Shown: positions 30,001 through 59,832 of the stretch, piece after piece
Position numbering within the stretch: position 1 is the stretch's first letter
Layout: the number at the start of each line of letters is the position of its first letter
Source of the DNA: Candidatus Doudnabacteria bacterium
Lineage (GTDB): Bacteria; Patescibacteriota; Doudnabacteria; UBA920; O2-02-FULL-48-8
Assembly (NCBI GenBank): GCA_039931165.1
Contig: JBDTSL010000002.1
Coordinates: forward strand, 71,134-135,133
Length of the DNA stretch: 64,000 bases
Reading direction: 5' to 3'
The notes under the pieces: generated by a model
What the model was told of the DNA's origin: nothing
Databases searched by the model: none
Seen by the model: the letters and a program-made list of their open reading frames with translations, nothing else
Made by a program: the position numbers and the translations under genes

Positions 30001-30380
30001 TTTTCTTTAAGTGTCGAAGTTTTTAGCTTGCTAGGATGTTTAAATTCAATAACAAATGCCCCGTACTTACTGTCGATTCTTCCTTGAGCAATATGCCTTT
30101 CTGTTCCGACGAATTTTTCTTTTTCAGGATAATACTTAAGACCAAGTTCGTTATTAATGAAGGAAAAAAGATTTAGTTCAAAACTGCTGACAACGGTTGC
30201 TTCATTTTCAGCAGTTTCGGAGCGCCTTTTAATAGCTAAAACAAGGCCCGGGAGCTTATTTCGATAGTCTGTAGAATATAATTTCTTAGTTACTGATTCA
30301 TTCATGATGTTATCTAACAAAATAGCGGCTAGTTTACCCGTTTTCTGATTTAATTCTAAACCAAATACGGCCAGACTCAA
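27048..30380 (-). CDS. Type IIG/IIL restriction-modification fusion enzyme (MmeI-family-like: PD-(D/E)xK nuclease + gamma-class N6-adenine MTase + TRD)
   Basis: 1110 aa, ~33% GC. N-terminal 'GRIDSKYGAFVIEFKHP' matches the MmeI D-x9-E-x-K nuclease motif; 'GEFYTPAW' motif X; 'MLDPTSGSGTFLI' motif I; 'GNPPWIDW' motif IV; long C-terminal target-recognition region. Confidence 0.7.
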   Translation of the reverse strand: MSLAVFGLELNQKTGKLAAILLDNIMNESVTKKLYSTDYRNKLPGLVLAIKRRSETAENEATVVSSFELNLFSFINNELGLKYYPEKEKFVGTERHIAQGRIDSKYGAFVIEFKHPSKLKTSTLKEKASSQLEDYLRGLNVKNPTDYLGLVTDGVICRFIRSEGGQIYTEAWMDISPTSLDRLVKTIILLEQIALTSDNLIRDFCEPLDDNLAKQLTKVFYKTLLDEMKPKTEMLFEEWQELFKLSHDDTSQQRDLQDRRKELSTAIDVGIKTNREEYLALYALQTTYALIVKLIAFKVVSKIYFNKNIFEFGDIAQANSAVLQMKMLSLEDGEIFRTIGINNLLEGDYFSWYASKQQWSKEIHKKIVEVVQVLSKYEDKVLVHEQVRTHDLFKELYQHIVPSKVRHSLGEFYTPAWLADNLVLESISQLKKKDNWRMLDPTSGSGTFLIVGIQKVLEETQSENRTDRIKEILSRVKGIDLNPLSVLTGRVNYFINTAHLIEEGIRFNIPIYLGDSSYVPEPQKIKDVECLGYHIKTLKGSIDIVLPKSVVSNTDRFSQTMTEIEYDIKSLDWSAVATKIKGLANSKELIPEISEKIDELAKKFIDLEKNEWNGIWARIVTNFLTTASLGRFELIVGNPPWIDWRNLPEGYRNRIKSLCIERHLFSGDGLTGGINLNVCALIANVAADNWLNKNGILAFLMPQNLMLLQTYEGFRNFYLSNGERLYFQNIFDWTKAGHPFQPVQHKFLTYFISDKVTDYEKGIDVSFFIKKSGNKIEKINEHIRYDEVRDSFRIEHKLMGQCIKGSTNFSYADSSKDLEQFRVISGKSSYIGREGVEFYPQELFLFEIDDEMPKRKNEIYLNNYQNEHSKHKIPAQDVLFEKMFVYPLIKGINIERYHLNVDSEFVVPFPYEKSFSTRVPLILSELRKKSPNLAKYILDNKAAIEAQTAYNEKIIGKREKEFYALARVGAYSFAKTYVTFRDNTKWQAAVVEEIETDWGGKKRPVFQNHAVSMCEREDGEFISTDEAHFVCAILNAPITQRFITNSSDSRSFKIRPPVFIPRYSKSNQRHKQLSDFSKLAHKNYSDEKTIINIDKMVNQTYLEICRLENK

Positions 30381-37615: not shown

Positions 37616-40135
37616 TCATATCTCCAATTTTTCCATCTCCGCCCAGTTGGTCCCGGCTTTAGCTTCCGACACGATCGGCACCTTAAGTTTATATGCCGAT
37701 TCCATGATTTTTTTGATCTTTTGGGCGAAGTCTTCGGCTTTTCCCTTCTCGACCTCAAAAACCAGTTCGTCGTGCACGGTCAGGATCATATTCGCCTCCG
37801 GCATTTCTTTTTCAATTTCGATCATGCTCAGCTTCATAATATCCGCGGCCAGGGATTGGATGGGTGTGTTCACGGCTTGCCTCTCGGCAGCCCCCCTGAT
37901 CGCAAAATTCGGAGCTGAAATATCCGGGAAATACCTGATCCTGCCCAAGGCGTTGGTGATGAAGCCCTGCTTGCGGGTGGTTTCGATCAGGCCGTCGATG
38001 TATTTTTTCAATTTGGAAAAAGTCTCAAAATATTTTTTTATATGTTCTCCGGCCTCGGCCCGCGTCAGCTCGGATCTGGAAGAAAGTCCGAACGCCGAAA
38101 CGCCATAAAGCACGCTGAAATTGATGGTTTTGGCGTCCCGGCGCTGATTTGAAGTGACCTTATCTTCAGGGACATTGAAGATCCTGGCCGCGGTTGCCCG
38201 GTGGAAATCCCCGCCGGCTTTGAAAATCTTCATCATTTCATCGTCGCCCGATAAAGACGCGGCAATTCGCAGTTCGATCTGCGAGTAATCCAAAGACAGA
38301 AGTACTTTGCCTTTCTCGGAAATAAAAGATTTGCGGACCTCGTTGCCCAGCTCGGTCCGGATGGGGATGTTCTGCAGGTTCGGATTGATCGAAGACAGCC
38401 TTCCCGTAGCCGCAATGGTCTGGCTGTACGTCGTGTGCACCCGTCCGTCATCTTTGGACACCAGCAAAGGAAGCGAATCTACGTAAGTCGATTTGAGTTT
38501 GGTCAGCTCGCGGTATTCGAAAAGCAGCTCGATGACCGGATGCAGTCCGCGCATTTTCTCCAGTTCTCCTGCCGCGGTCGAAATGCCGCCGGATTTTTTA
38601 TTTTTCTTGAGATTATCCGTGGGGATCCTCAGTTTTTCGAACAAAATTTCCGATAGCTGCTTCGGCGAGGAAATATTGAACTCCTGCCCGGCGAGTTTGT
38701 GAATTTCTTTGATCAGCTGGCCGATCCGCTTTTCCAGCCTGACGCTTAAAGACTCAAGCCAAGCCAGGTCCAGCTTCACGCCGCGGTTTTCCATGGCGAT
38801 CAAAACTTCTGCCAGCGGTTTTTCGATCTCATCATAGATCTTTAGAATATTTTTGGCTTTCAGTTCTTTTTCCAGCTCCTGTGTGCGGGCAAAAATTTCG
38901 GAAAAATCTTCCGGCTCATAGCTTCTCTGCCCAGGATTGGCCAAATACGAAGCAAGAAGCACATCGAATGTCATGGGCAGCAATTCGATGCCCGAGCTCA
39001 AAAATATCTGATGCAAAGTTTTCAGATCAAATCCGATCTTTTCGATCTTCGGGTCCTCTAGAACGTCTTTCAGTTCGGAAACTTTCTCCATAGGGATCTG
39101 ATAAATCTCGTGCTTGCTCCAGCCGATCAATAAGTTATCATCTTTCGCCATCAGCGCGATCTGTTTTTGCTTCTGCAATTTATCCGCATTCCGCAGAGCA
39201 GGAAAATTATTTTTCGGGGGAGCCAAAAGCTCGGACTGGGCGCCTTTGGAAACTTTCGGCAATCTGGAAACCAGAGATTTGATACCTAAATCGGCCAATA
39301 ATTTGATGACTTTGGACTGGTCATAGTCGCCCATTTCTGTTTTTTCAAAATCGAAATCCAACTCGCCTTTTTGATCTATATACGCCAGTTTTTGGGATAA
39401 ATACGCCTTGGGTTTGCCCTCAACCAATTTTTTTATGGTTCCTTCCTTGATTTTCTTTGACCCTCGCTCGGCCGCCTCGTACACACTGTCCAAACTGCCG
39501 AACTCTTTCATCAGATCCATCGCCCCTTTCTCGCCGATGCCCGGCACTCCCGGGATATTGTCGGACAGGTCGCCGCGGATGGCTTTATAGTCCACCCACT
39601 GGCCGGGATGCAAGCCATAAATTTCCACCATTTTATCAATATCAAAAATCTGGATGTCGGAAAACCCCGTTTTGAACCGGTACACCTGCGTATGGTTGTC
39701 GATCAGTTGCAACAGATCCAGATCTCCGGTAACAATGATGCTCAAAACATCTTTCGGCGTTTTGTGCGCGATGATCCCCAGCAGGTCATCCGCTTCAAAT
39801 CCGGCTCTTTCGTAAATCGGGATGTCCAATGCAATTAAAATTTCTTTGATCTTCGGCAGCTGCATCAGAAGTTCGTCCGGCGCTGGCTTGCGCGTGGCTT
39901 TATAATCCGAGGTTAACTTGTCGCGGAAGGTCGGTCCTTTCACATCAAAAGTCACCAGCGCATGACTCGGTTTTATGTCTACCAGAGCCTTGAAGAGCAT
40001 GGAAAAAAATCCGAAAATGGCTCCGGTCGGAAATCCGTCTTTGTTCGACATGGCCGGCAAGGCGTGAAAAGCGCGATGAAACAGGGCATGCCCGTCAATT
40101 AGTAAAAGTTTTCGTTTAAATTCGTTCATAGACAA
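37616..40135 (-). CDS. polA: DNA polymerase I (5'-3' exonuclease + polymerase; reduced 3'-5' exo region)
   Basis: 839 aa; 'LLLIDGHALFHRAFHA' 5' nuclease N-terminus; pol motifs 'DYSQIELR', 'RRDAKTINFSVLYG', 'VHDELVFE'. Confidence 0.9.
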   Translation of the reverse strand: MSMNEFKRKLLLIDGHALFHRAFHALPAMSNKDGFPTGAIFGFFSMLFKALVDIKPSHALVTFDVKGPTFRDKLTSDYKATRKPAPDELLMQLPKIKEILIALDIPIYERAGFEADDLLGIIAHKTPKDVLSIIVTGDLDLLQLIDNHTQVYRFKTGFSDIQIFDIDKMVEIYGLHPGQWVDYKAIRGDLSDNIPGVPGIGEKGAMDLMKEFGSLDSVYEAAERGSKKIKEGTIKKLVEGKPKAYLSQKLAYIDQKGELDFDFEKTEMGDYDQSKVIKLLADLGIKSLVSRLPKVSKGAQSELLAPPKNNFPALRNADKLQKQKQIALMAKDDNLLIGWSKHEIYQIPMEKVSELKDVLEDPKIEKIGFDLKTLHQIFLSSGIELLPMTFDVLLASYLANPGQRSYEPEDFSEIFARTQELEKELKAKNILKIYDEIEKPLAEVLIAMENRGVKLDLAWLESLSVRLEKRIGQLIKEIHKLAGQEFNISSPKQLSEILFEKLRIPTDNLKKNKKSGGISTAAGELEKMRGLHPVIELLFEYRELTKLKSTYVDSLPLLVSKDDGRVHTTYSQTIAATGRLSSINPNLQNIPIRTELGNEVRKSFISEKGKVLLSLDYSQIELRIAASLSGDDEMMKIFKAGGDFHRATAARIFNVPEDKVTSNQRRDAKTINFSVLYGVSAFGLSSRSELTRAEAGEHIKKYFETFSKLKKYIDGLIETTRKQGFITNALGRIRYFPDISAPNFAIRGAAERQAVNTPIQSLAADIMKLSMIEIEKEMPEANMILTVHDELVFEVEKGKAEDFAQKIKKIMESAYKLKVPIVSEAKAGTNWAEMEKLEI

Positions 40136-40958
40136 TATTTTCCATAATTTCTTTTGTATACGGAGTGAAGGAGCTCGGATACCTCCATAGTGAACGGATA
40201 ACCATATACAGATTAAATTCTGTTTTGTATTTCACCAAAAAATCTTCGCCATAACCTCTTATAAAAGAAGTTATTACCTCCAAATCATTTTTATTTTCCG
40301 GATTATCAGTATGAATATACGTTCCATTAGGACTATGGTCAACAATAGTTACTAAATCATAAGGATGATGACCGGAAAAAATTTCTGAACCTTTATCATA
40401 TAGTACAATCTCTTCGTTCTTCCCTAAAGTATTACCAGTATGAAGATCGCAGTGCAGCAAAGAATAAACGATGTTGTTGGAATCTAAAGCGAGAATTCTA
40501 CCATTTACATATTTGGATATATCTTTTAAAAAGCTGGCAGATAAATCACTTTTCTTCTCAATTTGTTCTTCCGTGGCTTTTTGAAAAGCGCCCGATAAAA
40601 AACTCTTCCAATCCAGCTTCTCTTCCTTGCCCTCGCTTGTAATTCTAAAGCAATACTCATAGTGGATCGAGTGCAATTTTCTTACAATTTTTCCAAACCT
40701 TTCATAGTCTTGTGCTGATCCGAAAATCAAACCACCAGCTGAATGCGGTATATACTCTAGTAATAACTGATCATTTTTGAGATTTGGGGCCTCAATAATA
40801 TTCAGTGTAGGAAACCCTCGGTCCTTCAACTCTTTCAAATACACTTTTTCGGTTGCTATCTCTTGAGGTTCTGCAGTTTTTAACACGAACTGTTTACCAT
40901 CAATTTCCACCAATTCTACTTTAGAACTATATGAATCAAATTGTTTTATAACTTTCAT
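40116..40958 (-). CDS. aminoglycoside/choline-kinase-like phosphotransferase (APH fold)
   Basis: 280 aa; Brenner motif 'LLHCDLHTGNTL' (HxDxxxxN) and downstream 'D' region; AT-rich relative to neighbours; stop overlaps the polA start by 20 nt. Confidence 0.6.
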   Translation of the reverse strand: MKVIKQFDSYSSKVELVEIDGKQFVLKTAEPQEIATEKVYLKELKDRGFPTLNIIEAPNLKNDQLLLEYIPHSAGGLIFGSAQDYERFGKIVRKLHSIHYEYCFRITSEGKEEKLDWKSFLSGAFQKATEEQIEKKSDLSASFLKDISKYVNGRILALDSNNIVYSLLHCDLHTGNTLGKNEEIVLYDKGSEIFSGHHPYDLVTIVDHSPNGTYIHTDNPENKNDLEVITSFIRGYGEDFLVKYKTEFNLYMVIRSLWRYPSSFTPYTKEIMENIVYERI

Positions 40959-52152: not shown

Positions 52153-52515
52153 CTACCCTCTTTTTCGAACGTTTACTTTTATATAACTTATTTTCGGAAT
52201 TCTTTTTAGAAATGCTCTATTTTTTGACATAATAGTTACTTTGGCGACCTTGCGGCCAGAATGCCATCCAAGCTTAGGCGCGCCATTTACTCTCGGAGCG
52301 TTCACAAATTTTGTATGATTACAATTTTTACAGGCTGTAACGAAATTTTCAATTCCATCATATCCACCCTTACTGACTGGAATGATATGGTCTACGTTCA
52401 ATGAACTAGATTTCTTCCGAACACCGCAATAACCGCAAATATATTTATCCCTGATATATACTCGCTTTCTGAGTGCTGGCTGGATAGTCTTTCTTGTTTT
52501 ATCCCTAAATGCCAT
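52153..52515 (-). CDS. HNH endonuclease
   Basis: 120 aa; 'CGYCG...NVDHIIPVSKGGYDGIENFVTACKNCNHTK' canonical HNH with Cys4 zinc site. Confidence 0.8.
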   Translation of the reverse strand: MAFRDKTRKTIQPALRKRVYIRDKYICGYCGVRKKSSSLNVDHIIPVSKGGYDGIENFVTACKNCNHTKFVNAPRVNGAPKLGWHSGRKVAKVTIMSKNRAFLKRIPKISYIKVNVRKRG

Positions 52516-52641
52516 TTGTTTTCTTTAAATTACTTCCTTGGCAATCCTCACCACTTTCGCAATATTTTTTTTCATATTTTAATTATTGAAATTTTAATAA
52601 ATATAATAACAACTTCTGATTAAAGTTCTCAGGCTAAGAAT

Positions 52642-54078
52642 TTATGCTTCCAAATCAGCATTCTCTAATACAATAAGTGCCTTATTCTTATCAACTAAAT
52701 TCAAATTAAATCCTGTTTCGTCATAAGATAATCCATGTACCCACCCAATTGCAGACATTGTGTGCTTAGCGTGTTTTAGATAATTACCTCTCACGTTCTT
52801 TGCTGTTACCCCTTTAGTTTTATCGAACTGTTTATTGAATTGTTTAATAAGTAATTCTTGCTCAGGCTGGGTTAATTTTCTAAACATGAGTACCAAATCA
52901 CGAATAAATAATAAATCAGTCATAGAATCAGCGTGCATTACAAATAGATAAAATTCTTCCAAACTTATATATTCTAGTTCTAACAATAACTTTATTATAA
53001 AACTTACCATATTTACTCCACCCCAAGTCATCATGGATGTGTTATTAGTATAAATATCTTTCTCACAATCCAAATTCTTACAAACAGCAAATTTAATACC
53101 CGATTCTGTTAAGGTTAATTTGGAGTTATCTTCTTTATTCTTATTCTTGAGTAAATGGGTTGCTAATCCCAACCTTATTAAATAATTTTTTTCTTGCCTA
53201 ATAAATAAGTCTCTAGGTCTTGTTTTATGTTTTTTCTTTTTAAATTTAATTTTAAGGCTGTTAAGAATAGTTATTAATTCTTTACTTTTTTTTGATATAT
53301 CAATATAACCCTTTTTACCTAACTTAGACTTAATTAAGATAACAATTTTTTTTAAGTTGGAGACTAAATTATTATCAATGTAGCCTTGGTCTGGAATAAT
53401 GTACCACCCTCTCCAGAGTGAATTTGTAAAATCACTTTTCACCTGTTTTTTCTTTTTAGAAATACCTATCCAAGATTTAATAAAATCAAACAGTACTTTT
53501 GATACTTTTTTGCTTTCGCTAGAAAATTTAACAATTTCAATTTCTTTTTTCACTTCTCGTTTTAGTCGCTCTCTATCCTGCCATTCTTTAAGAATTACAT
53601 CAGTTACTTCAAAACACTTATCATTATCCCAAAGATATTCAAAAAACATTAAAGATTGTTCAACTGTATTGTTTTTATTTGATTCGGGATCAATAAATAT
53701 ACTCGCTTCTACATTCTGCAAAAAAGCCGCTCTACTAAAGTTTGCAGATCCAACCAAACAGACCCAGGCTCCATTTTTTTCGGAAAGCCACATTTTAGGA
53801 TGAAAGGTGCCTGCTTCAAATTTGCATATTTTAACTTCAACTCCAACCCCTATCAACCTTCTAATTGCTGTTGGTTGAGTTATATCCATATCATTGCTAC
53901 ATATAATTCTAATGTCTCCCTTATTGATAATGATGGATTTCAAATCATCAATTAACATATCAACACCACTATTTCTAATATATGCTACAGCCAAAAATAA
54001 CTTATCGCTATCTTTTAATAGTTCCTTTATCTTTTTTAGATGATTGGGTAGAGAAATGATCTGATTTTGAATAAACAT
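52642..54078 (-). CDS. PLD-family (HKD) nuclease domain protein with long uncharacterised C-terminal region
   Basis: 478 aa; N-terminal domain 'LFLAVAYI...HPKMWLSEKNGAWVCLVGSANFSRAAF' = single HxK...GSxN PLD motif (BfiI/NgoFVII/Nuc-like). C-terminal ~300 aa Lys-rich, no match. Confidence 0.6.
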   Translation of the reverse strand: MFIQNQIISLPNHLKKIKELLKDSDKLFLAVAYIRNSGVDMLIDDLKSIIINKGDIRIICSNDMDITQPTAIRRLIGVGVEVKICKFEAGTFHPKMWLSEKNGAWVCLVGSANFSRAAFLQNVEASIFIDPESNKNNTVEQSLMFFEYLWDNDKCFEVTDVILKEWQDRERLKREVKKEIEIVKFSSESKKVSKVLFDFIKSWIGISKKKKQVKSDFTNSLWRGWYIIPDQGYIDNNLVSNLKKIVILIKSKLGKKGYIDISKKSKELITILNSLKIKFKKKKHKTRPRDLFIRQEKNYLIRLGLATHLLKNKNKEDNSKLTLTESGIKFAVCKNLDCEKDIYTNNTSMMTWGGVNMVSFIIKLLLELEYISLEEFYLFVMHADSMTDLLFIRDLVLMFRKLTQPEQELLIKQFNKQFDKTKGVTAKNVRGNYLKHAKHTMSAIGWVHGLSYDETGFNLNLVDKNKALIVLENADLEA

Positions 54079-54087
54079 AAGGACTAT

Positions 54088-55332
54088 TCAATATTTAACC
54101 AAGTATTCATAAATATCTTTTAATAATTCTCGATTGTAGTTTTTCATTCCACCAGCGAGATCACCTTTATACTTAACATTTTTTCCGTTTTCGGCATGAA
54201 TAAAATTATGATCGAAATCTTCAAGATCTATTTCGTTTTCTGTTATATTAAGAATCATATTCCGGTTTCCATTTTTCCCTATTTCGGCATGCTTATTCTT
54301 TTCTAGGTATAATAAATTTTTCCAATGATCAATCATTTTTAGTTCTTCTTTGTTACGAGCTGCATTAAAAGGAACAATATGATGCAATTCAAAACTAATG
54401 GATCGCTTTATGCTGTGTTTCACAAAATATTCTTGTTTAGCTCCTAGGCTTCTGAGCTGAACTCTGACATCAGAAAATAAACCATAACGGCCCGTATTTA
54501 AAGTTAAACTATTACGAGTAATTTCAAAATATACAGTATTTTTTAAAAGGCTAAATATTTGTTGGGACTCGTTCTTCCAATTATGGAAATCGCGGTCGTC
54601 CGTTTTGGATCCAGAAAAATTAACTGGATTGCAATATAGCTTTATTAAATCTATGGCTTTATTTTGCTGCCAACGCTTTAAACTACGATAAGAATCAATG
54701 AGTACAATCTTAAACTCTTTGGGAACCCCTTTTCTGTCATCAGATAAAATAAACATAAACTCATAAATACCTATCGGATCGTTTTTATAATTACTATAAT
54801 ATAAAGTTTCCGCTAACTGAGTTATTTGATCTTGAAATAAAACATCTAGCGCATCGGTGAAAACCTTATATTTGATCGAAATAGATCTGGTTGTGGCGAA
54901 TTCAGTAGCTTTTTTAGTTAACCCGCAATAGAAAATTTGACCTCGTGTCCCAATATCTAAGAGGTTTTCATTTTTATCATATCTATCCAAAAAACCCATT
55001 CTTTGAAAATCAACAAAAAAATTTTTCTTAATAGAATTAACTGTCCCAATTCCTATACTACTTTTAACTTTTTTAACTATTTCATAATACTGTACACAAT
55101 CCCTCTCCCTCGTACCATCATCATCACCTAAGGGTATCCTGAATTTACTATTCCCTACTACACTATGAATTGCCTCAACTATTCCAGATAACCTATCCAA
55201 ATCATATCTATTGTGTTGGGATATATGTAACCCGCGATAATCCTTATCTTTTATTCTTTCAACTATATAATGCAAAAATAAGTTATCTTTGTCTATCGAT
55301 AATATTTCTTTCAGAATATTATTTACGTTCAT
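54088..55332 (-). CDS. HNH-like nuclease domain protein, putative restriction endonuclease
   Basis: 414 aa; C-terminal 'SFELHHIVPFNAARNKEELKMIDHWKNLLYLEKNKH' HNH-type His-Asn-His pattern; start overlaps the upstream MTase stop. Confidence 0.45.
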   Translation of the reverse strand: MNVNNILKEILSIDKDNLFLHYIVERIKDKDYRGLHISQHNRYDLDRLSGIVEAIHSVVGNSKFRIPLGDDDGTRERDCVQYYEIVKKVKSSIGIGTVNSIKKNFFVDFQRMGFLDRYDKNENLLDIGTRGQIFYCGLTKKATEFATTRSISIKYKVFTDALDVLFQDQITQLAETLYYSNYKNDPIGIYEFMFILSDDRKGVPKEFKIVLIDSYRSLKRWQQNKAIDLIKLYCNPVNFSGSKTDDRDFHNWKNESQQIFSLLKNTVYFEITRNSLTLNTGRYGLFSDVRVQLRSLGAKQEYFVKHSIKRSISFELHHIVPFNAARNKEELKMIDHWKNLLYLEKNKHAEIGKNGNRNMILNITENEIDLEDFDHNFIHAENGKNVKYKGDLAGGMKNYNRELLKDIYEYLVKY

Positions 55333-56110
55333 TTTTATTCAAACTCTTGAGACGATTACTGGCTATTTTAACATACTCCTTATCTGAATCATTACCAACA
55401 AAATTACGTCCTAGTTTCGTGGCGGCCACAGCAGTTGTACCGCTACCTATAAAACAATCCAATACTAAATCACCTTTATTAGAACTCGCCAAAACCATCC
55501 TCTCAATCATATCTAAAGGCTTCGGGGTCAAATGAGGCAGCTTCTGTACCTTACCATTAACCTTGTGCTTGTGTCTTTCACTGGTTATATGCCAAACTTC
55601 GCCTACTACCTTGCCTTTTTCATTAGGAAACCATCTTTTCCCGTTTTTTAGGATTCCTCTAACCTTCGCATGTTCAATTCTCTCTGTTGAATCATAGGGT
55701 ACTCTTACATCATTATAATTAAAAGTGTGGTTATGCTCTTTGGTGAAAAAAAGAATAGTTTCTTGACCATTACTGTACCTTTGCTTTGCGCTACCTAAAC
55801 CGTCGCGTTTATCCCATGTTATCCAATTTTGGAATACTAATCTTCTTTTTATTAAATACTCTAAAATAAATGCTGAATTGTATGGTGTATTAAATATATA
55901 AATGCTGGAATCTTTCTTAAGTTTTGGAATGAGTGCGTCTATCCATTTAAATGTAAACTCTAAAAACTTTTTATGGTTTCTAAAAGTATCCCAATCCGCC
56001 TTATGCATATTATAAGGGGGATCTAATATAGCCAAATTAACAGTATTATTATCAATTTGTTTTAAAAAATCAAAGCAATCTAAATTGTAAATTTTGTTAA
56101 TTTTAAGCAT
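55319..56110 (-). CDS. DNA methyltransferase, beta-class amino-MTase (N6-adenine or N4-cytosine)
   Basis: 263 aa; motif IV 'DPPYNM' near N-terminus, motif I 'DLVLDCFIGSGTTAVAA' near C-terminus (beta-class order). Confidence 0.85.
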   Translation of the reverse strand: MLKINKIYNLDCFDFLKQIDNNTVNLAILDPPYNMHKADWDTFRNHKKFLEFTFKWIDALIPKLKKDSSIYIFNTPYNSAFILEYLIKRRLVFQNWITWDKRDGLGSAKQRYSNGQETILFFTKEHNHTFNYNDVRVPYDSTERIEHAKVRGILKNGKRWFPNEKGKVVGEVWHITSERHKHKVNGKVQKLPHLTPKPLDMIERMVLASSNKGDLVLDCFIGSGTTAVAATKLGRNFVGNDSDKEYVKIASNRLKSLNKNERK

Positions 56111-56726
56111 TTATTATAAATTCTTTTAAAATTTCACTCATTGGTTCTAAGTCTGGAACTGCTTTTGTGTAAGCAGGATTAGGCATCCAGCTTGCAAGTG
56201 GAGGTAGCCCAATTGAGTACCCAGCAAGGCATACACTTTTGTCGTCATCTAATAAAAATGCTTGTACATAAAAATCTGCCTTTGAATTTTGTTTTTGATC
56301 AATTAATAAATTAAGGGGCATTCCGTTTAATTTTAGTCCTTTAAATATTTGGTCTAAAGATACTTTATTATTTTCGTAAGTTTTTATATCAATGGTCTTA
56401 TTTTTGATTTTAAACTCAAATCCCTCATCAAATTTCCCAATGACAATCCCATAAGAAAACTCTACTCTTTTATGAAGTATTTGCCATCTGTCTAGGGGTT
56501 CAATCGCTCCAAAATTATTATTGAGGTAACTAAAAATATATTCTAAAAATGCAAGTTCGCCTAAAATTCCCGTCTTAATTTTATTGATATGTGATATTTT
56601 TTCGTAACTACCATAGCCCCGGCGTGGATATTCAAATAAACTCCTTTTCTCGGCCACATACTCGGCCACATGGTTCATCTCGTCTGTTATAGCTATAACT
56701 ATTAGATTACTCTTATTTACAGACAT
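56103..56726 (-). CDS. hypothetical protein sandwiched between the two MTase genes (possible restriction/nicking subunit)
   Basis: 207 aa; overlaps both neighbours (translational coupling); 'GILGELAFLEY' plus Asp/Glu/Lys-rich segments; no confident motif. Confidence 0.4.
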   Translation of the reverse strand: MSVNKSNLIVIAITDEMNHVAEYVAEKRSLFEYPRRGYGSYEKISHINKIKTGILGELAFLEYIFSYLNNNFGAIEPLDRWQILHKRVEFSYGIVIGKFDEGFEFKIKNKTIDIKTYENNKVSLDQIFKGLKLNGMPLNLLIDQKQNSKADFYVQAFLLDDDKSVCLAGYSIGLPPLASWMPNPAYTKAVPDLEPMSEILKEFIINA

Positions 56727-57556
56727 AATTTTAATTTGATAACTTTTTCATAACTCTTGGAGATTTCATAACCAACATATTTCCTATCTAACTCCTTGGC
56801 CACTTTTAATGTAGTCCCGGAACCGACAAATGGGTCTAGAATGAGTTCTCCAACGAAACTATAAAGTCTAACACATCTTTTAACTATTTCCTCTGGCATA
56901 ATTGCTGAATGCTCACCAAAGGCAATGTCCCCTCTGCCTGGGATTGGAATATTCCAGATTTGCTTTGTATATTCTATCCACTCCTTCTGAGTCAATTTGC
57001 TTCGTTCTTTTATTTTATGAGTAAAATTATTTTCAGGGATACCATCCTTGACATAAATTGTAATAAACTCTGTCGTATTCTGGGCATAAAAATTTCTAGG
57101 AAATGGGTAGCTCCCAAACATAAGTCTTTTACTAGGATTTGTTCTATTCCAAATAAATAAATCCATTAAATATAAATTGGTATTTCTTAAAATAGAATGC
57201 TGAATATCGCTATTGATATCAAAAATATGCCTATTATAATGTGTAGTCATGTTCTTTTTCAAAATTGGCATTAAGGGGCTATTTATAGCGATTTTTCCAT
57301 TCGGTTTCAGCACACGATGGCATTCTTCCCAAACTTTTAGCATCTCTTCAATGTATTTATTATATTCCGGAATGTCTCCTATTTGGCCATTTACTTTTTC
57401 CGATGTTTTATTCTTTTGATAACCATCGAGTGAATAATCCTTAATGTTAAAATAGGGCGGGCTGGTGACGATGAGCTGAACAGAATTATCTGGAAGCTCT
57501 TTCATCATTCGCGCGTCCTTAAAGAATACCTTATTTATGTAATCAATTTGTTTCAT
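56717..57556 (-). CDS. DNA methyltransferase, beta-class amino-MTase (second)
   Basis: 279 aa; motif IV 'SPPYFN', motif I 'ILDPFVGSGTT'; ParB-less, MTase only. Confidence 0.85.
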   Translation of the reverse strand: MKQIDYINKVFFKDARMMKELPDNSVQLIVTSPPYFNIKDYSLDGYQKNKTSEKVNGQIGDIPEYNKYIEEMLKVWEECHRVLKPNGKIAINSPLMPILKKNMTTHYNRHIFDINSDIQHSILRNTNLYLMDLFIWNRTNPSKRLMFGSYPFPRNFYAQNTTEFITIYVKDGIPENNFTHKIKERSKLTQKEWIEYTKQIWNIPIPGRGDIAFGEHSAIMPEEIVKRCVRLYSFVGELILDPFVGSGTTLKVAKELDRKYVGYEISKSYEKVIKLKLCL

Positions 57557-57667
57557 CGATACCTACTGACGCTACTATAATGCCATAAAAACTCTAGATT
57601 GACAATAAAAATAGCGGCGTTTTTTCTGCAAAAAGTCAAATTCATTCCCTCAAGATTAAAGCTTAGA

Positions 57668-58234
57668 TCAACCAGTAAAACCAATCGTCCGTGGGTTACT
57701 GGAATATTCCAAATCCTTCAGCAAACTGACGTACTCTTTCAGCATTTCCGCCGGGATGTTTTCCTGCGCCGTATCCAGAATCAGATTATAGTAGGCCATC
57801 ATGTGCTGTCTCGAGGCATTAAACTTATCCCAAAATTTGTCCCCGTAAATTTTCAGGTTGTCTTTCAAGTCCCGCATATTGGATATAGCATCCGCGGATT
57901 TGAGAAACATGGCCATTTTTGACCGCCCCATCCGGACAAGTACATCATCTTTCCGCTTGATCCAATCCTTGATCGCTTTATTTTCGGTGACCATATCCAC
58001 CAGCTCGGCCACACCCGGCCCGAACTCCTGCCGCATTTCTTCCGATGTGTATTTGGTATCCTCGATGGTATCGTGCAGGATCGCTGCGGCGATAACCTCT
58101 TCGTTTGGAGTAAACCTGGCCATCAGCATGGCGACTTCCAAAGGATGGACGATGAACGGTGTTTCCTCATCCTTGCGCAGCTGGCCCTGATGCAGGGTCA
58201 TGGCTTTAATTGTAGCTTTTCTGACTAATCCCAT
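57668..58234 (-). CDS. HD-domain (p)ppGpp hydrolase-like protein (small alarmone hydrolase, RelA/SpoT HD family)
   Basis: 188 aa; 'FIVHPLEVAMLM...AAILHDTIEDT' is the RelA/SpoT hydrolase HD signature. Confidence 0.75.
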   Translation of the reverse strand: MGLVRKATIKAMTLHQGQLRKDEETPFIVHPLEVAMLMARFTPNEEVIAAAILHDTIEDTKYTSEEMRQEFGPGVAELVDMVTENKAIKDWIKRKDDVLVRMGRSKMAMFLKSADAISNMRDLKDNLKIYGDKFWDKFNASRQHMMAYYNLILDTAQENIPAEMLKEYVSLLKDLEYSSNPRTIGFTG

Positions 58235-58482
58235 ATTTTTCCTTTCGTTTAAAAATTAAAAAACTCTTCCCACGAGGAAAGAGAAATAAAAAATCGACCA
58301 TTTATCTTTCCCCGAAGGGCTGAAGTTGGCACCTTCTTTAGGTTATCAATCTAAAGGGTTGCCGGTAGGGTCATAAGGTCAGTTCCTTCGCCTACTCTCT
58401 TGATAGTTAACTATTCAATTGTAAATTAATTATACTCCTATTTCGTAAAATAGTCAAATTTTACCACAATTTCTAATACAAA
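58235..58482 (-). promoter_or_regulatory. long structured 5' leader with intrinsic terminator (riboswitch/attenuator-like) upstream of the HD-hydrolase gene
   Basis: Minus-sense: ...aggagtataat... then multiple helices (cccuucgggg UUCG tetraloop; cuuuag/cuaaag; gaagg/ccuuc pairs), then cucuuuccucgugggaagag+UUUUUU about 45 nt before the ATG. Confidence 0.45.
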
Positions 58483-59367
58483 TTACTTTAGTTGTGGAAA
58501 TTTAATTTTTCTAGGAGCTTTATCCATAATAGTCTGCGGGGTATAAGACCAAAAGTTTATAAAACAATTTGGATTATTTGTACGTAATCCTTTTTTTGTC
58601 TGAAAAGAAATGGGTAAATTGTTTTTTCTACAAGCAGAATAAAATCTTTTAAGAACGTGGAATTTTTCCTCTTCGGCAGGAGTAAAATTAATTTCTTTAT
58701 TAGGTGTCGGAATTAGCTCCAATTGCTTGCTCTTAGTCCGTTCCCATTCGATGAATTTTTCAAAATGACCCCAGGAATAAGATCCTAAACCAGCAAACAA
58801 ATCCGAAACTTGTATTAAGGGCATGGAATGCGATGGGGTAGGAATAATCGATAACAATTTAACTCTCTGAAACTTAGAGACCATCCTAAAAAGATCATTA
58901 ACAAAATTATGTTTTTTACCATTAATACAATCCCACAAAACGTTCCAATCGACTGAGGATTGGTTGTCAGGAAACCATCTCCAAGAATGCCCGTCGATTG
59001 GCCATCTCTGGCTCAGTATTGACGAAATTAAATGATAATACATTCTAACCAAATTGGCATTATCATCTCTGTGTATTATTCCTCTATGCCTTGAGTCCAG
59101 TAAATCCCAAATAATTACATCTATTCTTAGTTTATCCCTGTTTAAAAAAATAAAATCGAGTATTTTTTCTGCTGCAAATCGGTACTTCGCACTGCTCAAT
59201 TTTCCCCATTTAAATTCTTTGCCAACATCCGAATTTTTATAGATTTCTAAAAGACCTGCATTCAATCGTTTAATATGATCACGGTTTACAGTTAAAACTG
59301 CTAAACTATTGAAGCGGCCCTGATGATGTTTCGAATCATCCGAAAAAGCAAAATGTGTTGGTAGCAT
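58483..59367 (-). CDS. DUF3800-like protein
   Basis: 294 aa; N-terminal 'FAFSDDSKHHQGRFNSLAVL' and C-terminal 'LIQVSDLFAGL' resemble the DUF3800 D...S / Q(V/L)ADL.A signature. Confidence 0.5.
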   Translation of the reverse strand: MLPTHFAFSDDSKHHQGRFNSLAVLTVNRDHIKRLNAGLLEIYKNSDVGKEFKWGKLSSAKYRFAAEKILDFIFLNRDKLRIDVIIWDLLDSRHRGIIHRDDNANLVRMYYHLISSILSQRWPIDGHSWRWFPDNQSSVDWNVLWDCINGKKHNFVNDLFRMVSKFQRVKLLSIIPTPSHSMPLIQVSDLFAGLGSYSWGHFEKFIEWERTKSKQLELIPTPNKEINFTPAEEEKFHVLKRFYSACRKNNLPISFQTKKGLRTNNPNCFINFWSYTPQTIMDKAPRKIKFPQLK

Positions 59368-59490
59368 AAATTTATAATATTAGTGGGAAAATCATCACAC
59401 AAACTACTTGAAAAATCAACCTAAATTCCAATATCTAAAAAGAATAAAAAACCGGATCCCATGGAAATTGTTCCACGAAACCCGGAGGGA

Positions 59491-59832
59491 CTACTTCGCA
59501 AACGCGCGGCGGAAATCGTCCACGCTCGAGCTGTTCGTAAACCGCGCGATGACCGGCCCGTGCAGATTATTCAGCCGCAGTTCGATCGACCCGCCGTCGG
59601 CATGAGCGTAGCTGAAGGCGTAAGGTTTGCCGCTGAGCTTGCACCACAGCACGTTGCACATCGAGCCTTGGTGGGAGCGGACCCGGATCGATCCCACGTC
59701 CACGTTGGCTACCAGATACCCGATGAGCGGGAAGACGATTGCCTTGATATTCGGCCCGTGGTGATTCGCCCGGCGAATGACGCCGGCAAAGTACTCCTTC
59801 AGTGTTTCCAGTGTCGTCACGTTTACTGACAT
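59491..59832 (-). CDS. hypothetical protein on a GC-rich (~60%) foreign patch
   Basis: 113 aa; composition protein-like, whereas the overlapping + strand ORF is Arg-rich antisense-like. No family assigned. Confidence 0.4.
   Translation of the reverse strand: MSVNVTTLETLKEYFAGVIRRANHHGPNIKAIVFPLIGYLVANVDVGSIRVRSHQGSMCNVLWCKLSGKPYAFSYAHADGGSIELRLNNLHGPVIARFTNSSSVDDFRRAFAK

What the first reader, a model, noticed from the sequence alone, without database searches (positions are those of the whole stretch)
57668..58482. HD-domain (p)ppGpp-hydrolase-like gene preceded by a ~200-nt highly structured leader ending in an intrinsic terminator
The 188-aa protein has the RelA/SpoT hydrolase signature HPLEV...ILHDTIEDT, as in a small alarmone hydrolase. 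Its 5' leader on the minus strand has a -10 box and then multiple stable helices, including a UUCG-tetraloop stem and several gaagg/ccuuc pairings. A stem + U6 terminator lies about 45 nt before the ATG. That layout is typical of a transcription-attenuating riboswitch. Nucleotide-alarmone (ppGpp/PRPP) riboswitches exist, so ligand-controlled expression of an alarmone hydrolase next to a defence operon would be notable. I could not match it to a known consensus by eye.
Basis: partly seen in the sequence, partly recalled or inferred. Interest (0 to 1): 0.6.

Follow-up and report, generated by a model that had tools for sequence, protein, structure and literature searches.

The report
SAM riboswitch controlling an alarmone-hydrolase gene
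The structured leader is a textbook S-adenosylmethionine (SAM-I) riboswitch with a terminator/antiterminator switch, not an alarmone sensor; the only unusual thing is that it sits in front of a small (p)ppGpp-hydrolase-like gene inside a defence-gene island of a Candidatus Doudnabacteria genome.

Summary
On the minus strand there is a near-consensus promoter (58457-58429), a structured leader, a stem plus U6 terminator (58283-58258), a ribosome-binding site, and a 188-aa HD gene (58234-57668).

The leader belongs to a known family. Rfam places 58409-58299 in SAM-I (RF00162) at 56.8 bits, above the 44.4 cut-off, over the full model. A model built without this sequence also finds it, at 48.9 bits. 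No ykkC, PRPP or c-di-GMP model matches, even at E<=10.

The 3' strands of P4 and P1 can instead pair with the 5' half of the terminator. This is the classical S-box OFF design: high SAM terminates transcription, low SAM lets it read through.

The protein is a small alarmone hydrolase by sequence (HD_4; PDB 7QOC, E 1.8e-25) and keeps all catalytic motifs. Its composition matches the core genome. Both flanks are foreign, low-GC defence genes.

The SAM-I/hydrolase pairing is rare: I found two distinct cases among about 245 related loci. It is absent from the nearest relatives I could read, and I found no paper describing it.

Verdict: a new member of a known riboswitch class with an atypical target gene. 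Interest is modest. The physiological logic is not resolved.

The parts
58429..58457 (-). Promoter-like site: -35 TTGACT (58457-58452), 17-nt spacer, -10 TATAAT (58434-58429).
   Evidence: matches 11 of 12 consensus positions and is the best site in the region. It lies 25 nt after the stop codon of the upstream DUF3800 gene.
58299..58409 (-). SAM-I riboswitch aptamer (S-box) with helices P1-P4.
   Evidence: - **Family match:** one search gives RF00162 at 56.8 bits (gathering score 44.4), E 1.7e-10, model positions 1-108 of 108.
- **Independent check:** model R1, built from L098 plus a remembered T. tengcongensis sequence and not from the window, scores 48.9 bits.
- **Conserved blocks:** UAUCAAGAG, CGGCAACC, AGGUGCCAA and GAAAGAUA are all present.
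- **Pseudoknot:** P2-loop CUGA is complementary to J3/4 UCAG. This is a double change relative to the consensus cuGG/CCug.
- **P1:** the helix has two non-standard pairs.
58310..58319 (-). Helix P4 of the aptamer: CCC-UUCG-GGG.
   Evidence: P4 is shorter than in the consensus.
58274..58313 (-). Antiterminator. GGGGAAAGAUAAAU (58313-58300, the 3' strands of P4 and P1) pairs with AUUUCUCUUUCCUC (58287-58274, which includes the 5' half of the terminator).
   Evidence: - **Unconstrained fold:** the minimum-energy fold forms this helix, at -44.3 kcal/mol for 58412-58250.
- **P1 enforced:** this gives the four-way junction plus terminator at -35.8 kcal/mol.
- **Chance control:** the duplex energy of -14.9 kcal/mol is reached by 7 of 2000 shuffles of the partner strand.
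58258..58283 (-). Intrinsic terminator: 8-bp stem CUCUUUCC/GGAAGAG(G) with loop UCGU, followed by UUUUUU.
   Evidence: One search found only one other candidate, inside the DUF3800 ORF (58963-58945), in the co-directional gene array 59367-52153.
58240..58245 (-). Ribosome-binding site AAAGGA, 5-6 nt before the ATG. No predicted helix sequesters it.
   Evidence: Read directly from the sequence; folds.
57668..58234 (-). HD gene: a 188-aa single-domain RelA/SpoT-type hydrolase (small alarmone hydrolase family).
   Evidence: - **Pfam:** HD_4 at 64 bits.
- **Solved structures:** 7QOC E 1.8e-25, 7QOE, 4YF1, MESH1, and the hydrolase domains of Rel proteins.
- **Motifs:** R20, K21, H30, H54, D55, E58, D59, D115 and N119 are invariant in the subfamily alignment.
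- **Identity:** identical to an NCBI protein from a Candidatus Doudnabacteria genome assembled from a metagenome.
- **Composition:** GC 0.48 and GC3 0.61, like the core genome.
57557..57667 (-). Spacer between the HD gene and the first methyltransferase. It has no terminator-like site and only a weak promoter-like site (TTGTCA-17-CATTAT, 57605-57577).
   Evidence: Read-through from the riboswitch-controlled transcript into the restriction-modification genes is therefore possible but not shown.
52153..57556 (-). Downstream low-GC defence block: type II methyltransferase (57556-56717), 207-aa unknown (56726-56103), type II methyltransferase (56110-55319), type II restriction enzyme (55332-54088), PLD-family nuclease (54078-52642) and HNH nuclease (52515-52153). 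This is context and is not shown to be part of the riboswitch unit.
   Evidence: Pfam, PADLOC. GC 0.30-0.34 and GC3 0.26-0.33, against a genome GC3 of 0.51-0.67.
58483..59367 (-). Upstream low-GC gene: 294-aa DUF3800 protein (PADLOC candidate defence family PDC-M04A). It is co-directional with the HD gene, and no terminator lies between its stop codon and the riboswitch.

Best explanation
The leader is a SAM-I (S-box) riboswitch acting as a transcriptional OFF switch on the HD gene.

**Proposed mechanism**
1. Transcription starts about 10-20 nt upstream of the aptamer, from the TTGACT/TATAAT promoter, and possibly also by read-through from the DUF3800 gene.
2. When S-adenosylmethionine is plentiful, it binds the four-way junction (58409-58299) and locks helices P1 and P4.
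3. The segment CUCUUUCC is then free to form the terminator hairpin (58283-58264 plus U6). Transcription stops about 25 nt before the ribosome-binding site.
4. When SAM is scarce, the 3' strands of P4 and P1 (58313-58300) pair with 58287-58274. This antiterminator removes the terminator's 5' half, and RNA polymerase continues into the HD gene.
5. No terminator follows the HD gene, so polymerase may also continue into the restriction-modification genes.

**The product.** It is a small alarmone hydrolase, a Mn2+-dependent 3'-pyrophosphohydrolase of the RelA/SpoT family. It most likely degrades (p)ppGpp and/or (p)ppApp. The net effect would be more hydrolase made when SAM (methionine supply) is low.

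**Shown by computation:** family membership of the RNA and of the protein, and the mutually exclusive helices.

**Inferred:** ligand binding, termination control in vivo, the enzyme's substrate, and the reason a Candidatus Doudnabacteria cell would tie this enzyme to SAM.
For: **Riboswitch identity**
- RF00162 matches over its full length at 56.8 bits, above the 44.4 cut-off, with E 1.7e-10. It is the only family that passes in an E<=10 scan of the leader.
- An independent covariance model scores 48.9 bits.
- The conserved core blocks are intact and the pseudoknot is kept by a double change.

**Switch design**
- The terminator lies directly 3' of the aptamer.
- The antiterminator shares strands with P1/P4 on one side and with the terminator on the other. 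It is the unconstrained minimum-energy fold.
- Enforcing P1 produces the junction plus the terminator.
- The ribosome-binding site and ATG follow immediately, with no room for another gene.

**Protein**
- HD_4 at 64 bits.
- Solved small-alarmone-hydrolase structures match at E 1e-25 to 1e-20.
- The catalytic motifs are invariant.

**A second case.** A second, unrelated locus (L098) has a strong SAM-I (85.9 bits) at the head of a tight co-directional operon that contains a hydrolase of the same subfamily.
Against: - **No covariation test.** The only other copies of this leader are identical contigs (L001, L002). The genome has no close relative in the collections searched; a neighbouring gene's best relative is 41% identical.
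- **Weak P1.** P1 has two non-standard pairs after a 4-bp core, so the ligand-bound state may be weak.
- **Rare, unstable pairing.** I found 2 distinct cases in about 245 loci carrying related HD genes. The nearest relatives I could read, L089 and L090, have a different leader. A relative of L098's hydrolase at 87% identity, in the same operon, lacks the L098 terminator sequence upstream.
- **No metabolic link.** Genes flanking this hydrolase subfamily show no enrichment for methionine, cysteine or SAM metabolism. There is therefore no independent support for a functional link between SAM and this enzyme.
Confidence: 0.8

Rival explanations
1. The riboswitch is intact in sequence, but its link to this gene is an accident of genome rearrangement. 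Under this view a SAM-I leader and a hydrolase gene were brought together by the insertions and recombination that built the defence island. Control of the hydrolase by SAM would have no adaptive meaning and could be on its way to being lost.
For: - The HD ORF has core-genome composition (GC3 0.61). The leader and both flanks are AT-rich, and the flanking genes are clearly foreign (GC3 0.26-0.33).
- The pairing is sporadic across relatives.
- Neighbours of the subfamily show no sulfur-metabolism link.
- P1 carries two mismatches.
Against: - The aptamer core, pseudoknot, antiterminator, terminator, ribosome-binding site and ATG are all intact and tightly spaced. This is not what decay looks like.
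- Leaders are AT-rich in any genome, so the composition contrast is weak evidence.
- A second independent SAM-I plus hydrolase operon exists (L098).
Confidence: 0.12
2. The riboswitch is a sensor of SAM depletion for the defence island. Under this view a fall in SAM, caused by starvation or by a phage SAM-degrading enzyme, opens the antiterminator. This induces the hydrolase and, by read-through, the two methyltransferases, the restriction enzyme and the nucleases downstream.
For: - One search found no terminator-like site between the riboswitch terminator and the last gene of the co-directional array on that strand, other than a 5-bp match inside the HD ORF (57924-57911).
- The genes from 57556 to 54088 overlap one another, and 9 nt separate the restriction enzyme from the PLD nuclease that ends at 52642.
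- The unit sits inside a defence island.
- That phages carry SAM-degrading enzymes which disable SAM-dependent defences is established knowledge, not something tested here.
Against: - The restriction-modification block has foreign composition, unlike the HD gene, so it is probably a later insertion.
- A promoter-like site precedes the first methyltransferase (57605-57577).
- Raising restriction enzyme and methyltransferase together when SAM is low has no obvious benefit.
- PADLOC has no model that matches the HD protein.
- I found no literature support.
Confidence: 0.06
3. One reading: the leader senses an alarmone or a related nucleotide (ppGpp, pppGpp, PRPP, c-di-GMP), giving feedback control of the hydrolase by its own substrate.
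For: The only support is the appeal of the logic, together with the existence of ppGpp and PRPP riboswitches (ykkC subtype 2), which is established knowledge.
Against: - No ykkC, PRPP or c-di-GMP family matches, even at E<=10.
- The whole structured region is accounted for by a full-length SAM-I aptamer and its expression platform.
Confidence: 0.01

Closest known systems
SAM-I riboswitch / S-box leaders (Rfam RF00162). Examples from my own knowledge: the Bacillus subtilis yitJ, metI and metK leaders, and the Thermoanaerobacter tengcongensis metF aptamer (PDB 2GIS).
   Same: - Four-way junction P1-P4.
- GA/UGA kink-turn motif in P2.
- Pseudoknot between the P2 loop and J3/4.
- Conserved core blocks: UAUCAAGAG, CGGCAACC, AGGUGCCAA, GAAAGAU.
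- A terminator/antiterminator expression platform in which the 3' strand of P1 is the switching segment, so the riboswitch turns the gene off when SAM is high.
   Different: - **Target gene.** The downstream gene is a RelA/SpoT-type HD hydrolase and not a methionine, cysteine or SAM biosynthesis or transport gene.
- **Host.** The host is a Candidatus Doudnabacteria (Patescibacteria/CPR) genome.
- **P1.** It has two non-standard pairs.
- **P4.** It is minimal: 3 bp plus a UUCG loop.
- **P2a and P3.** P2a has extra inserted bases, and P3 has a long loop.
- **Pseudoknot.** It uses CUGA/UCAG in place of the consensus cuGG/CCug.
Small alarmone hydrolases: single-domain RelA/SpoT-homologue hydrolases. 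Solved examples that matched here are PDB 7QOC/7QOD, 7QOE, 4YF1 (Lmo0812), MESH1 (3NR1, 5VXA) and the (p)ppApp hydrolase 7SMG.
   Same: - About 190 aa, consisting of an HD_4 domain only.
- All catalytic motifs are present: RK, HP, HD, ED and D...N.
- The alignment to 7QOC covers residues 4-162, so it includes the C-terminal helical extension.
   Different: - It is at most 47% identical to any protein in the collection.
- No partner synthetase or toxin gene lies in the 64-kb window.
- It is preceded by a riboswitch. No paper in the searched library describes that for this family.
ppGpp and PRPP riboswitches (ykkC subtype 2a/2b)
   Same: The concept is shared: an RNA switch connected to alarmone physiology, acting through an intrinsic terminator.
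   Different: - The fold and ligand are different.
- Those switches sense the alarmone and turn on amino-acid or purine genes.
- This one senses SAM and controls an alarmone-degrading enzyme.
- There is no sequence or structure match.
L098 operon (JGI metagenome contig Ga0102928_1009648, 27% GC; its hydrolase belongs to a clade found mostly in Halanaerobiales and Clostridia)
   Same: A SAM-I riboswitch (85.9 bits) with a terminator sits at the head of a co-directional gene array that contains a hydrolase of the same subfamily (33% identical).
   Different: - Three unknown genes lie between the riboswitch and the hydrolase.
- The operon continues into an unknown gene and a long ORF that I read by eye as AddB-like; in the relative L246 the corresponding 926-aa gene carries a PD-(D/E)XK nuclease domain (PDDEXK_1).
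- A relative of its hydrolase at 87% identity (L245) has the same genes but a different sequence where the riboswitch terminator would be.

Membership tests
SAM-I riboswitch (RF00162) | Covariance-model score at or above the curated gathering score, over the full model. | tested here: met
   56.8 bits against 44.4, model positions 1-108 of 108, E 1.7e-10; an independent model gives 48.9 bits.
SAM-I riboswitch (RF00162) | Four helices P1-P4 around a junction, formed by standard pairs. | tested here: met
   P2, P3 and P4 are fully paired. P1 has a 4-bp core, then two non-standard pairs, then weak pairs.
SAM-I riboswitch (RF00162) | Pseudoknot between the P2 loop and J3/4. | tested here: met
   Read from the sequence. 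Loop CUGA and J3/4 UCAG give 4 standard pairs, a double change relative to the consensus cuGG/CCug. Rfam's model does not score this feature.
SAM-I riboswitch (RF00162) | Conserved nucleotides that contact SAM in the crystal structures. From my memory of PDB 2GIS these are the A-U pairs of P1, G11, and the C44/A45 and U57/G58 equivalents. | tested here: met
   The alignment shows UAUCAAGAG, CGGCAACC, GGUGCCAA and GAAAGAUA all identical to the consensus at these positions. Which bases contact SAM is recalled from memory and was not computed.
SAM-I riboswitch (RF00162) | Expression platform with mutually exclusive terminator and antiterminator, using the 3' strand of P1. | tested here: met
SAM-I riboswitch (RF00162) | Selective binding of SAM, and SAM-dependent termination. 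| not testable with these tools
   Needs in-line probing or calorimetry, and in vitro transcription.
SAM-I riboswitch (RF00162) | Usual genomic association with methionine, cysteine or SAM metabolism or transport genes. This is typical of the family, not defining. | tested here: not met
   The downstream gene is an HD_4 hydrolase. No MetK motif was found in the window.
Small alarmone hydrolase (single-domain RelA/SpoT-homologue hydrolase) | HD_4 / RelA-SpoT hydrolase domain above the family threshold. | tested here: met
   PF13328 at 64 bits (cut-off 27.2); partial match to the hydrolase end of TIGR00691.
Small alarmone hydrolase (single-domain RelA/SpoT-homologue hydrolase) | Stand-alone protein with no synthetase, TGS or ACT domains. 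| tested here: met
   The protein is 188 aa and only HD_4 and HD matched. In the whole window, proteins that carry a synthetase domain match only through their HD part.
Small alarmone hydrolase (single-domain RelA/SpoT-homologue hydrolase) | Metal-binding and catalytic residues: RK, H(P), HD, ED and D..N. Their roles are recalled from the Rel and MESH1 structures. | tested here: met
   R20, H30, H54, D55, E58, D59, D115 and N119 are invariant and K21 is nearly invariant across 21 subfamily members, the window protein included.
Small alarmone hydrolase (single-domain RelA/SpoT-homologue hydrolase) | Sequence relationship to structurally solved members. | tested here: met
   7QOC E 1.8e-25 (residues 4-162), 7QOE 3.7e-21, 4YF1 1.8e-20, MESH1 about 4e-15.
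Small alarmone hydrolase (single-domain RelA/SpoT-homologue hydrolase) | Hydrolysis of (p)ppGpp or (p)ppApp. | not testable with these tools
   Needs an enzyme assay.
ppGpp / PRPP riboswitch (ykkC subtype 2) and other nucleotide-sensing classes | Match to the family covariance model. | tested here: not met
   no such family matches, even at E<=10 in the 301-nt leader.

The most novel reading that the evidence does not exclude
SAM supply is wired by design to alarmone turnover, and possibly to a defence island, in an ultrasmall CPR bacterium. Under this reading, falling SAM derepresses a small alarmone hydrolase. The fall could come from loss of host-derived methionine or from a phage SAM-degrading enzyme. 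Read-through would also raise expression of the adjacent restriction-modification and nuclease genes. That would make a classical metabolite riboswitch a stress or infection sensor and not a biosynthetic feedback device. The independent SAM-I plus hydrolase operon in L098 would be a second example of the same logic.
Probability: 0.1. Interest if true: 0.7.

Novelty: new member of a known kind. Interest (0 to 1): 0.3.

Why it matters
**The open question is answered.** It is SAM-I, and that removes the more exciting idea of an alarmone-sensing switch.

**What remains of interest is limited.**
- SAM riboswitches are almost always feedback controls on sulfur amino-acid and SAM metabolism.
- Here one controls a (p)ppGpp/(p)ppApp hydrolase-type gene.
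- The organism belongs to a group (Patescibacteria) with minimal biosynthesis. I found no papers on native riboswitches in this group.

**If the link is functional,** it would connect methyl-donor status to stringent-response signalling. It would also offer a natural, ligand-controlled expression element from a CPR genome.

**If the link is an accident of island assembly,** it illustrates how modular riboswitch leaders get re-used.

Tried and rejected
1. **Alarmone, PRPP or c-di-GMP riboswitch.** Rejected: there is no Rfam match at E<=10.

2. **Conservation of the leader in the hydrolase's relatives.**
   - I fetched about 245 loci: 80 genome, 75 metagenome, 80 viral, and 10 contigs by exact protein look-up.
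   - I scanned them with Rfam or with my own SAM-I model. Only L098 carried a SAM-I on the gene's strand.
   - A simple regular-expression prefilter missed L098, so I abandoned it as unreliable.

3. **The nearest relative, P0002 (47% identity).** It has a 241-nt upstream gap, but its DNA could not be fetched.

4. **Synteny in related Doudnabacteria, using a core neighbour gene.** This was a dead end. The best relative of the trypsin-like protease is 41% identical, so no close genome is available.

5. **A hidden link between this hydrolase subfamily and methionine, cysteine or SAM genes.**
   - The idea came from a serine acetyltransferase next to the gene in L004 and a homoserine dehydrogenase near it in L005.
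   - A Pfam survey of 103 flanking genes showed no such enrichment.

6. **A partner synthetase or toxin, or MetK, in the window.** None was found.

7. **Conservation of the L098 riboswitch in its 87%-identical relative L245.**
   - The contig begins only 70 nt before the first gene.
   - Those 70 nt do not contain the L098 terminator.
   - The test therefore leans negative but is incomplete.

8. **Literature.** Six searches found no paper linking SAM riboswitches to HD or alarmone hydrolases, and none on native riboswitches in Patescibacteria. The library is incomplete.

9. **Structure prediction.** Not run, because the sequence matches to solved hydrolases were already decisive.
Full report
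**1. What is there**

On the minus strand, the ORF at 58234-57668 encodes a 188-aa protein containing HPLEV and ILHDTIEDT. Upstream of it, in order, lie:
- a near-consensus promoter, TTGACT-17-TATAAT, at 58457-58429;
- about 195 nt of leader;
- an 8-bp GC-containing hairpin followed by U6, at 58283-58258;
- a ribosome-binding site, AAAGGA, at 58245-40.

**2. What the leader is**

A scan of the whole window against Rfam at curated thresholds gave two hits. One is a tRNA. The other is SAM-I (RF00162) at 58409-58299 on the minus strand: 56.8 bits against a gathering score of 44.4, E 1.7e-10, covering model positions 1-108 of 108.

I repeated the scan on the 301-nt leader alone with permissive filters and E<=10. 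SAM-I was the only family above its threshold. No ykkC, PRPP, c-di-GMP or other nucleotide-sensing family appeared.

As an independent check I built a covariance model from a different SAM-I (L098) plus the T. tengcongensis aptamer sequence recalled from memory. The window sequence was not used. That model finds the window aptamer at 48.9 bits, E about 1e-11.

The conserved core blocks UAUCAAGAG, CGGCAACC, AGGUGCCAA and GAAAGAUA are intact. From my memory of the 2GIS structure, these blocks hold the SAM-contacting bases. The P2-loop/J3/4 pseudoknot is not scored by the Rfam model. It is preserved here by a double change, with loop CUGA pairing with UCAG where the consensus has cuGG/CCug.

The weak points are P1 and P4. 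P1 has a 4-bp core followed by two non-standard pairs, and P4 has only 3 bp.

**3. How it most likely works**

ViennaRNA folding of 58412-58250 without constraints gives P2 and P3 plus a long helix between GGGGAAAGAUAAAU (58313-58300) and AUUUCUCUUUCCUC (58287-58274), at -44.3 kcal/mol. The first strand is the 3' side of P4 and P1. The second strand includes the 5' half of the terminator.

Enforcing the four P1 core pairs yields the four-way junction plus the terminator hairpin, at -35.8 kcal/mol. The antiterminator duplex energy is reached by 7 of 2000 shuffles of the partner strand.

This is the classical S-box arrangement:
- The ligand-free RNA reads through.
- SAM stabilises P1 and P4, which releases the terminator.

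The 8.5 kcal/mol gap is of a size I would expect ligand binding and co-transcriptional folding to overcome; this is my judgement, not a computed result. The ribosome-binding site is not sequestered in either fold, so control is transcriptional.

Family membership and the mutually exclusive helices are computed results. SAM binding and termination control are inferred.

**4. The gene it controls**

- **Family.** The protein matches Pfam HD_4 at 64 bits.
- **Solved relatives.** Its best matches are stand-alone hydrolases: 7QOC (E 1.8e-25, residues 4-162), 7QOE and 4YF1. MESH1 and the hydrolase domains of Rel enzymes follow.
- **Motifs.** R20, K21, H30, H54, D55, E58, D59, D115 and N119 are conserved in a 21-member subfamily alignment. 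They correspond to the metal-binding and catalytic motifs of RelA/SpoT hydrolases; the residue roles are from memory.
- **Conclusion.** By sequence it is a small alarmone hydrolase. Its substrate was not tested.
- **Source.** The identical protein is annotated in NCBI as coming from a Candidatus Doudnabacteria genome assembled from a metagenome.
- **Relatives.** The nearest relatives are only 47%, 44% and 40% identical.

**5. Surroundings**

The window's long ORFs mostly have GC 0.46-0.53 and GC3 0.51-0.67. The HD ORF fits this, at 0.48 and 0.61. The genes on both sides do not:
- **Upstream.** The DUF3800 gene (59367-58483) matches the PADLOC candidate defence family PDC-M04A and has GC3 0.30.
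- **Downstream.** A tightly packed array runs from 57556 to 52153, with GC3 of 0.26-0.33 for the five genes from 57556 to 52642. It holds two type II methyltransferases, a 207-aa unknown gene, a type II restriction enzyme, a PLD-family nuclease and an HNH nuclease.

The hydrolase gene therefore looks resident, with foreign defence genes on each side.

On the minus strand across 59367-52153, only two other, weaker terminator-like matches were found, both inside ORFs. Read-through from DUF3800 into the riboswitch is therefore possible. Read-through from the HD gene into the restriction-modification genes is also possible. Neither is shown. A weak promoter-like site (57605-57577) precedes the first methyltransferase.

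No alarmone synthetase domain and no MetK motif occur in the 64 kb.

**6. Is the pairing recurrent?**

I collected about 245 loci carrying relatives of the hydrolase:
- 80 from species-representative genomes;
- 75 from metagenomes;
- 80 from viral contigs, where the family is common;
- contigs fetched by exact protein look-up.

Rfam scans of 60 loci and my SAM-I model on the rest found one further case, L098. There, a strong SAM-I (85.9 bits) with a terminator heads a co-directional, tightly spaced array. The array holds three unknown genes, a hydrolase 33% identical to the window's, another unknown gene and a long ORF that looks AddB-like by eye.

Several results weaken the case for a recurrent pairing:
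- A relative of L098's hydrolase at 87% identity (L245) has the same genes. The 70 nt available upstream do not contain L098's terminator.
- The window protein's nearest relatives with readable DNA are L090 and L089, at 44% identity. They have long structured leaders of a different, unclassified kind.
- A Pfam survey of 103 genes flanking the subfamily shows no enrichment for sulfur amino-acid or SAM metabolism.
- Two weak SAM-I-like hits, in L158 and L130, lie on the strand opposite to the hydrolase.

The association is real in this genome but rare and evolutionarily unstable.

**7. What could not be tested**

The only other copies of this leader are identical contigs from two sequencing runs. 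The lineage has no close relative in the collections: a neighbouring core gene's best relative is 41% identical. Covariation within the lineage therefore cannot be assessed. Six literature searches found nothing on SAM riboswitches controlling HD or alarmone hydrolases, or on native riboswitches in Patescibacteria. The library is incomplete, so this is not proof of absence.

**8. Comparison with known systems, and verdict**

The RNA meets every computable criterion for SAM-I. It differs from typical members only in detail: a weak P1, a minimal P4 and a long P3 loop. Its real departure is the gene it controls. The protein meets every computable criterion for a small alarmone hydrolase. The ykkC-type alarmone riboswitch reading fails its membership test.

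| Explanation | Confidence |
|---|---|
| Functional SAM-responsive OFF switch on a hydrolase gene | about 0.8 |
| Pairing is an accident of island assembly, with no adaptive logic | about 0.12 |
| SAM-depletion sensor feeding into the defence genes | about 0.06 |

Novelty: a new member of a known kind, with an atypical regulon. Interest is modest, at 0.3. The finding would rise sharply only if SAM-dependent control of alarmone turnover or of the defence island were demonstrated.

Noticed in passing
L090:1583-2041 and L089:1-195: The two nearest relatives of the hydrolase with readable DNA (44% identity) also have long leaders, but not SAM-I.
- **L090:** a promoter-like site is followed by about 180 nt of structured RNA that ends in a very strong terminator (about 1812-1872). 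The fold z-score is -4.5.
- **Shared by both loci:** a roughly 170-nt leader follows, with a long stem (UUAACCC.../...GGGGUUAA) and a hairpin GCCG-AAGGUCGA-CGGC just before the start codon.
- **Rfam:** no family matches at E<=1.

This could be an unclassified cis-regulatory RNA.
   Followed up: partly
L098:165-267 and L098:345-5001: A second SAM-I riboswitch (85.9 bits) heads an operon in a 27%-GC contig. The operon holds three genes with no significant family match, a small alarmone hydrolase, another unknown gene and a long ORF that looks AddB-like by eye. Relatives L245, L246 and L247 keep the unknown-hydrolase-unknown core, and in L246 and L247 a 926-aa PD-(D/E)XK nuclease-domain gene follows it.
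   Followed up: partly
window 52153-59367: A low-GC (0.30-0.34) defence island surrounds the HD gene. It contains DUF3800 (PADLOC PDC-M04A), two type II methyltransferases, a 207-aa unknown gene between them, a type II restriction enzyme, a PLD-family nuclease (weak PbeA/DrmC-like matches) and an HNH nuclease.
   Followed up: partly
window 59452-59832: A 113-aa protein of the integron-cassette family VCH_CASS14 (59491-59832, minus strand) has unusually high GC (0.59). A strong 15-bp terminator follows it at 59485-59452, at the edge of the low-GC island.
   Followed up: no
window 27048-30305: A second low-GC (0.37) insertion holds a 1085-aa protein resembling an Eco57I-type fused restriction-modification enzyme.
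   Followed up: no
window 40116-40958: A third low-GC gene (GC 0.34) encodes a 280-aa protein of the APH phosphotransferase family. It lies directly after the DNA polymerase I gene (37616-40129).
   Followed up: no
L158:200-288 (-) and L130:532-621 (-): Weak SAM-I-like matches to my model (30.0 and 21.4 bits) lie on the strand opposite to the hydrolase gene. In the model alignment, L158 has the P4 region replaced by 3 nt, so it may lack P4. Neither locus was checked against Rfam.
   Followed up: no
None of the 80 loci examined has a SAM-I nearby.
   Followed up: partly
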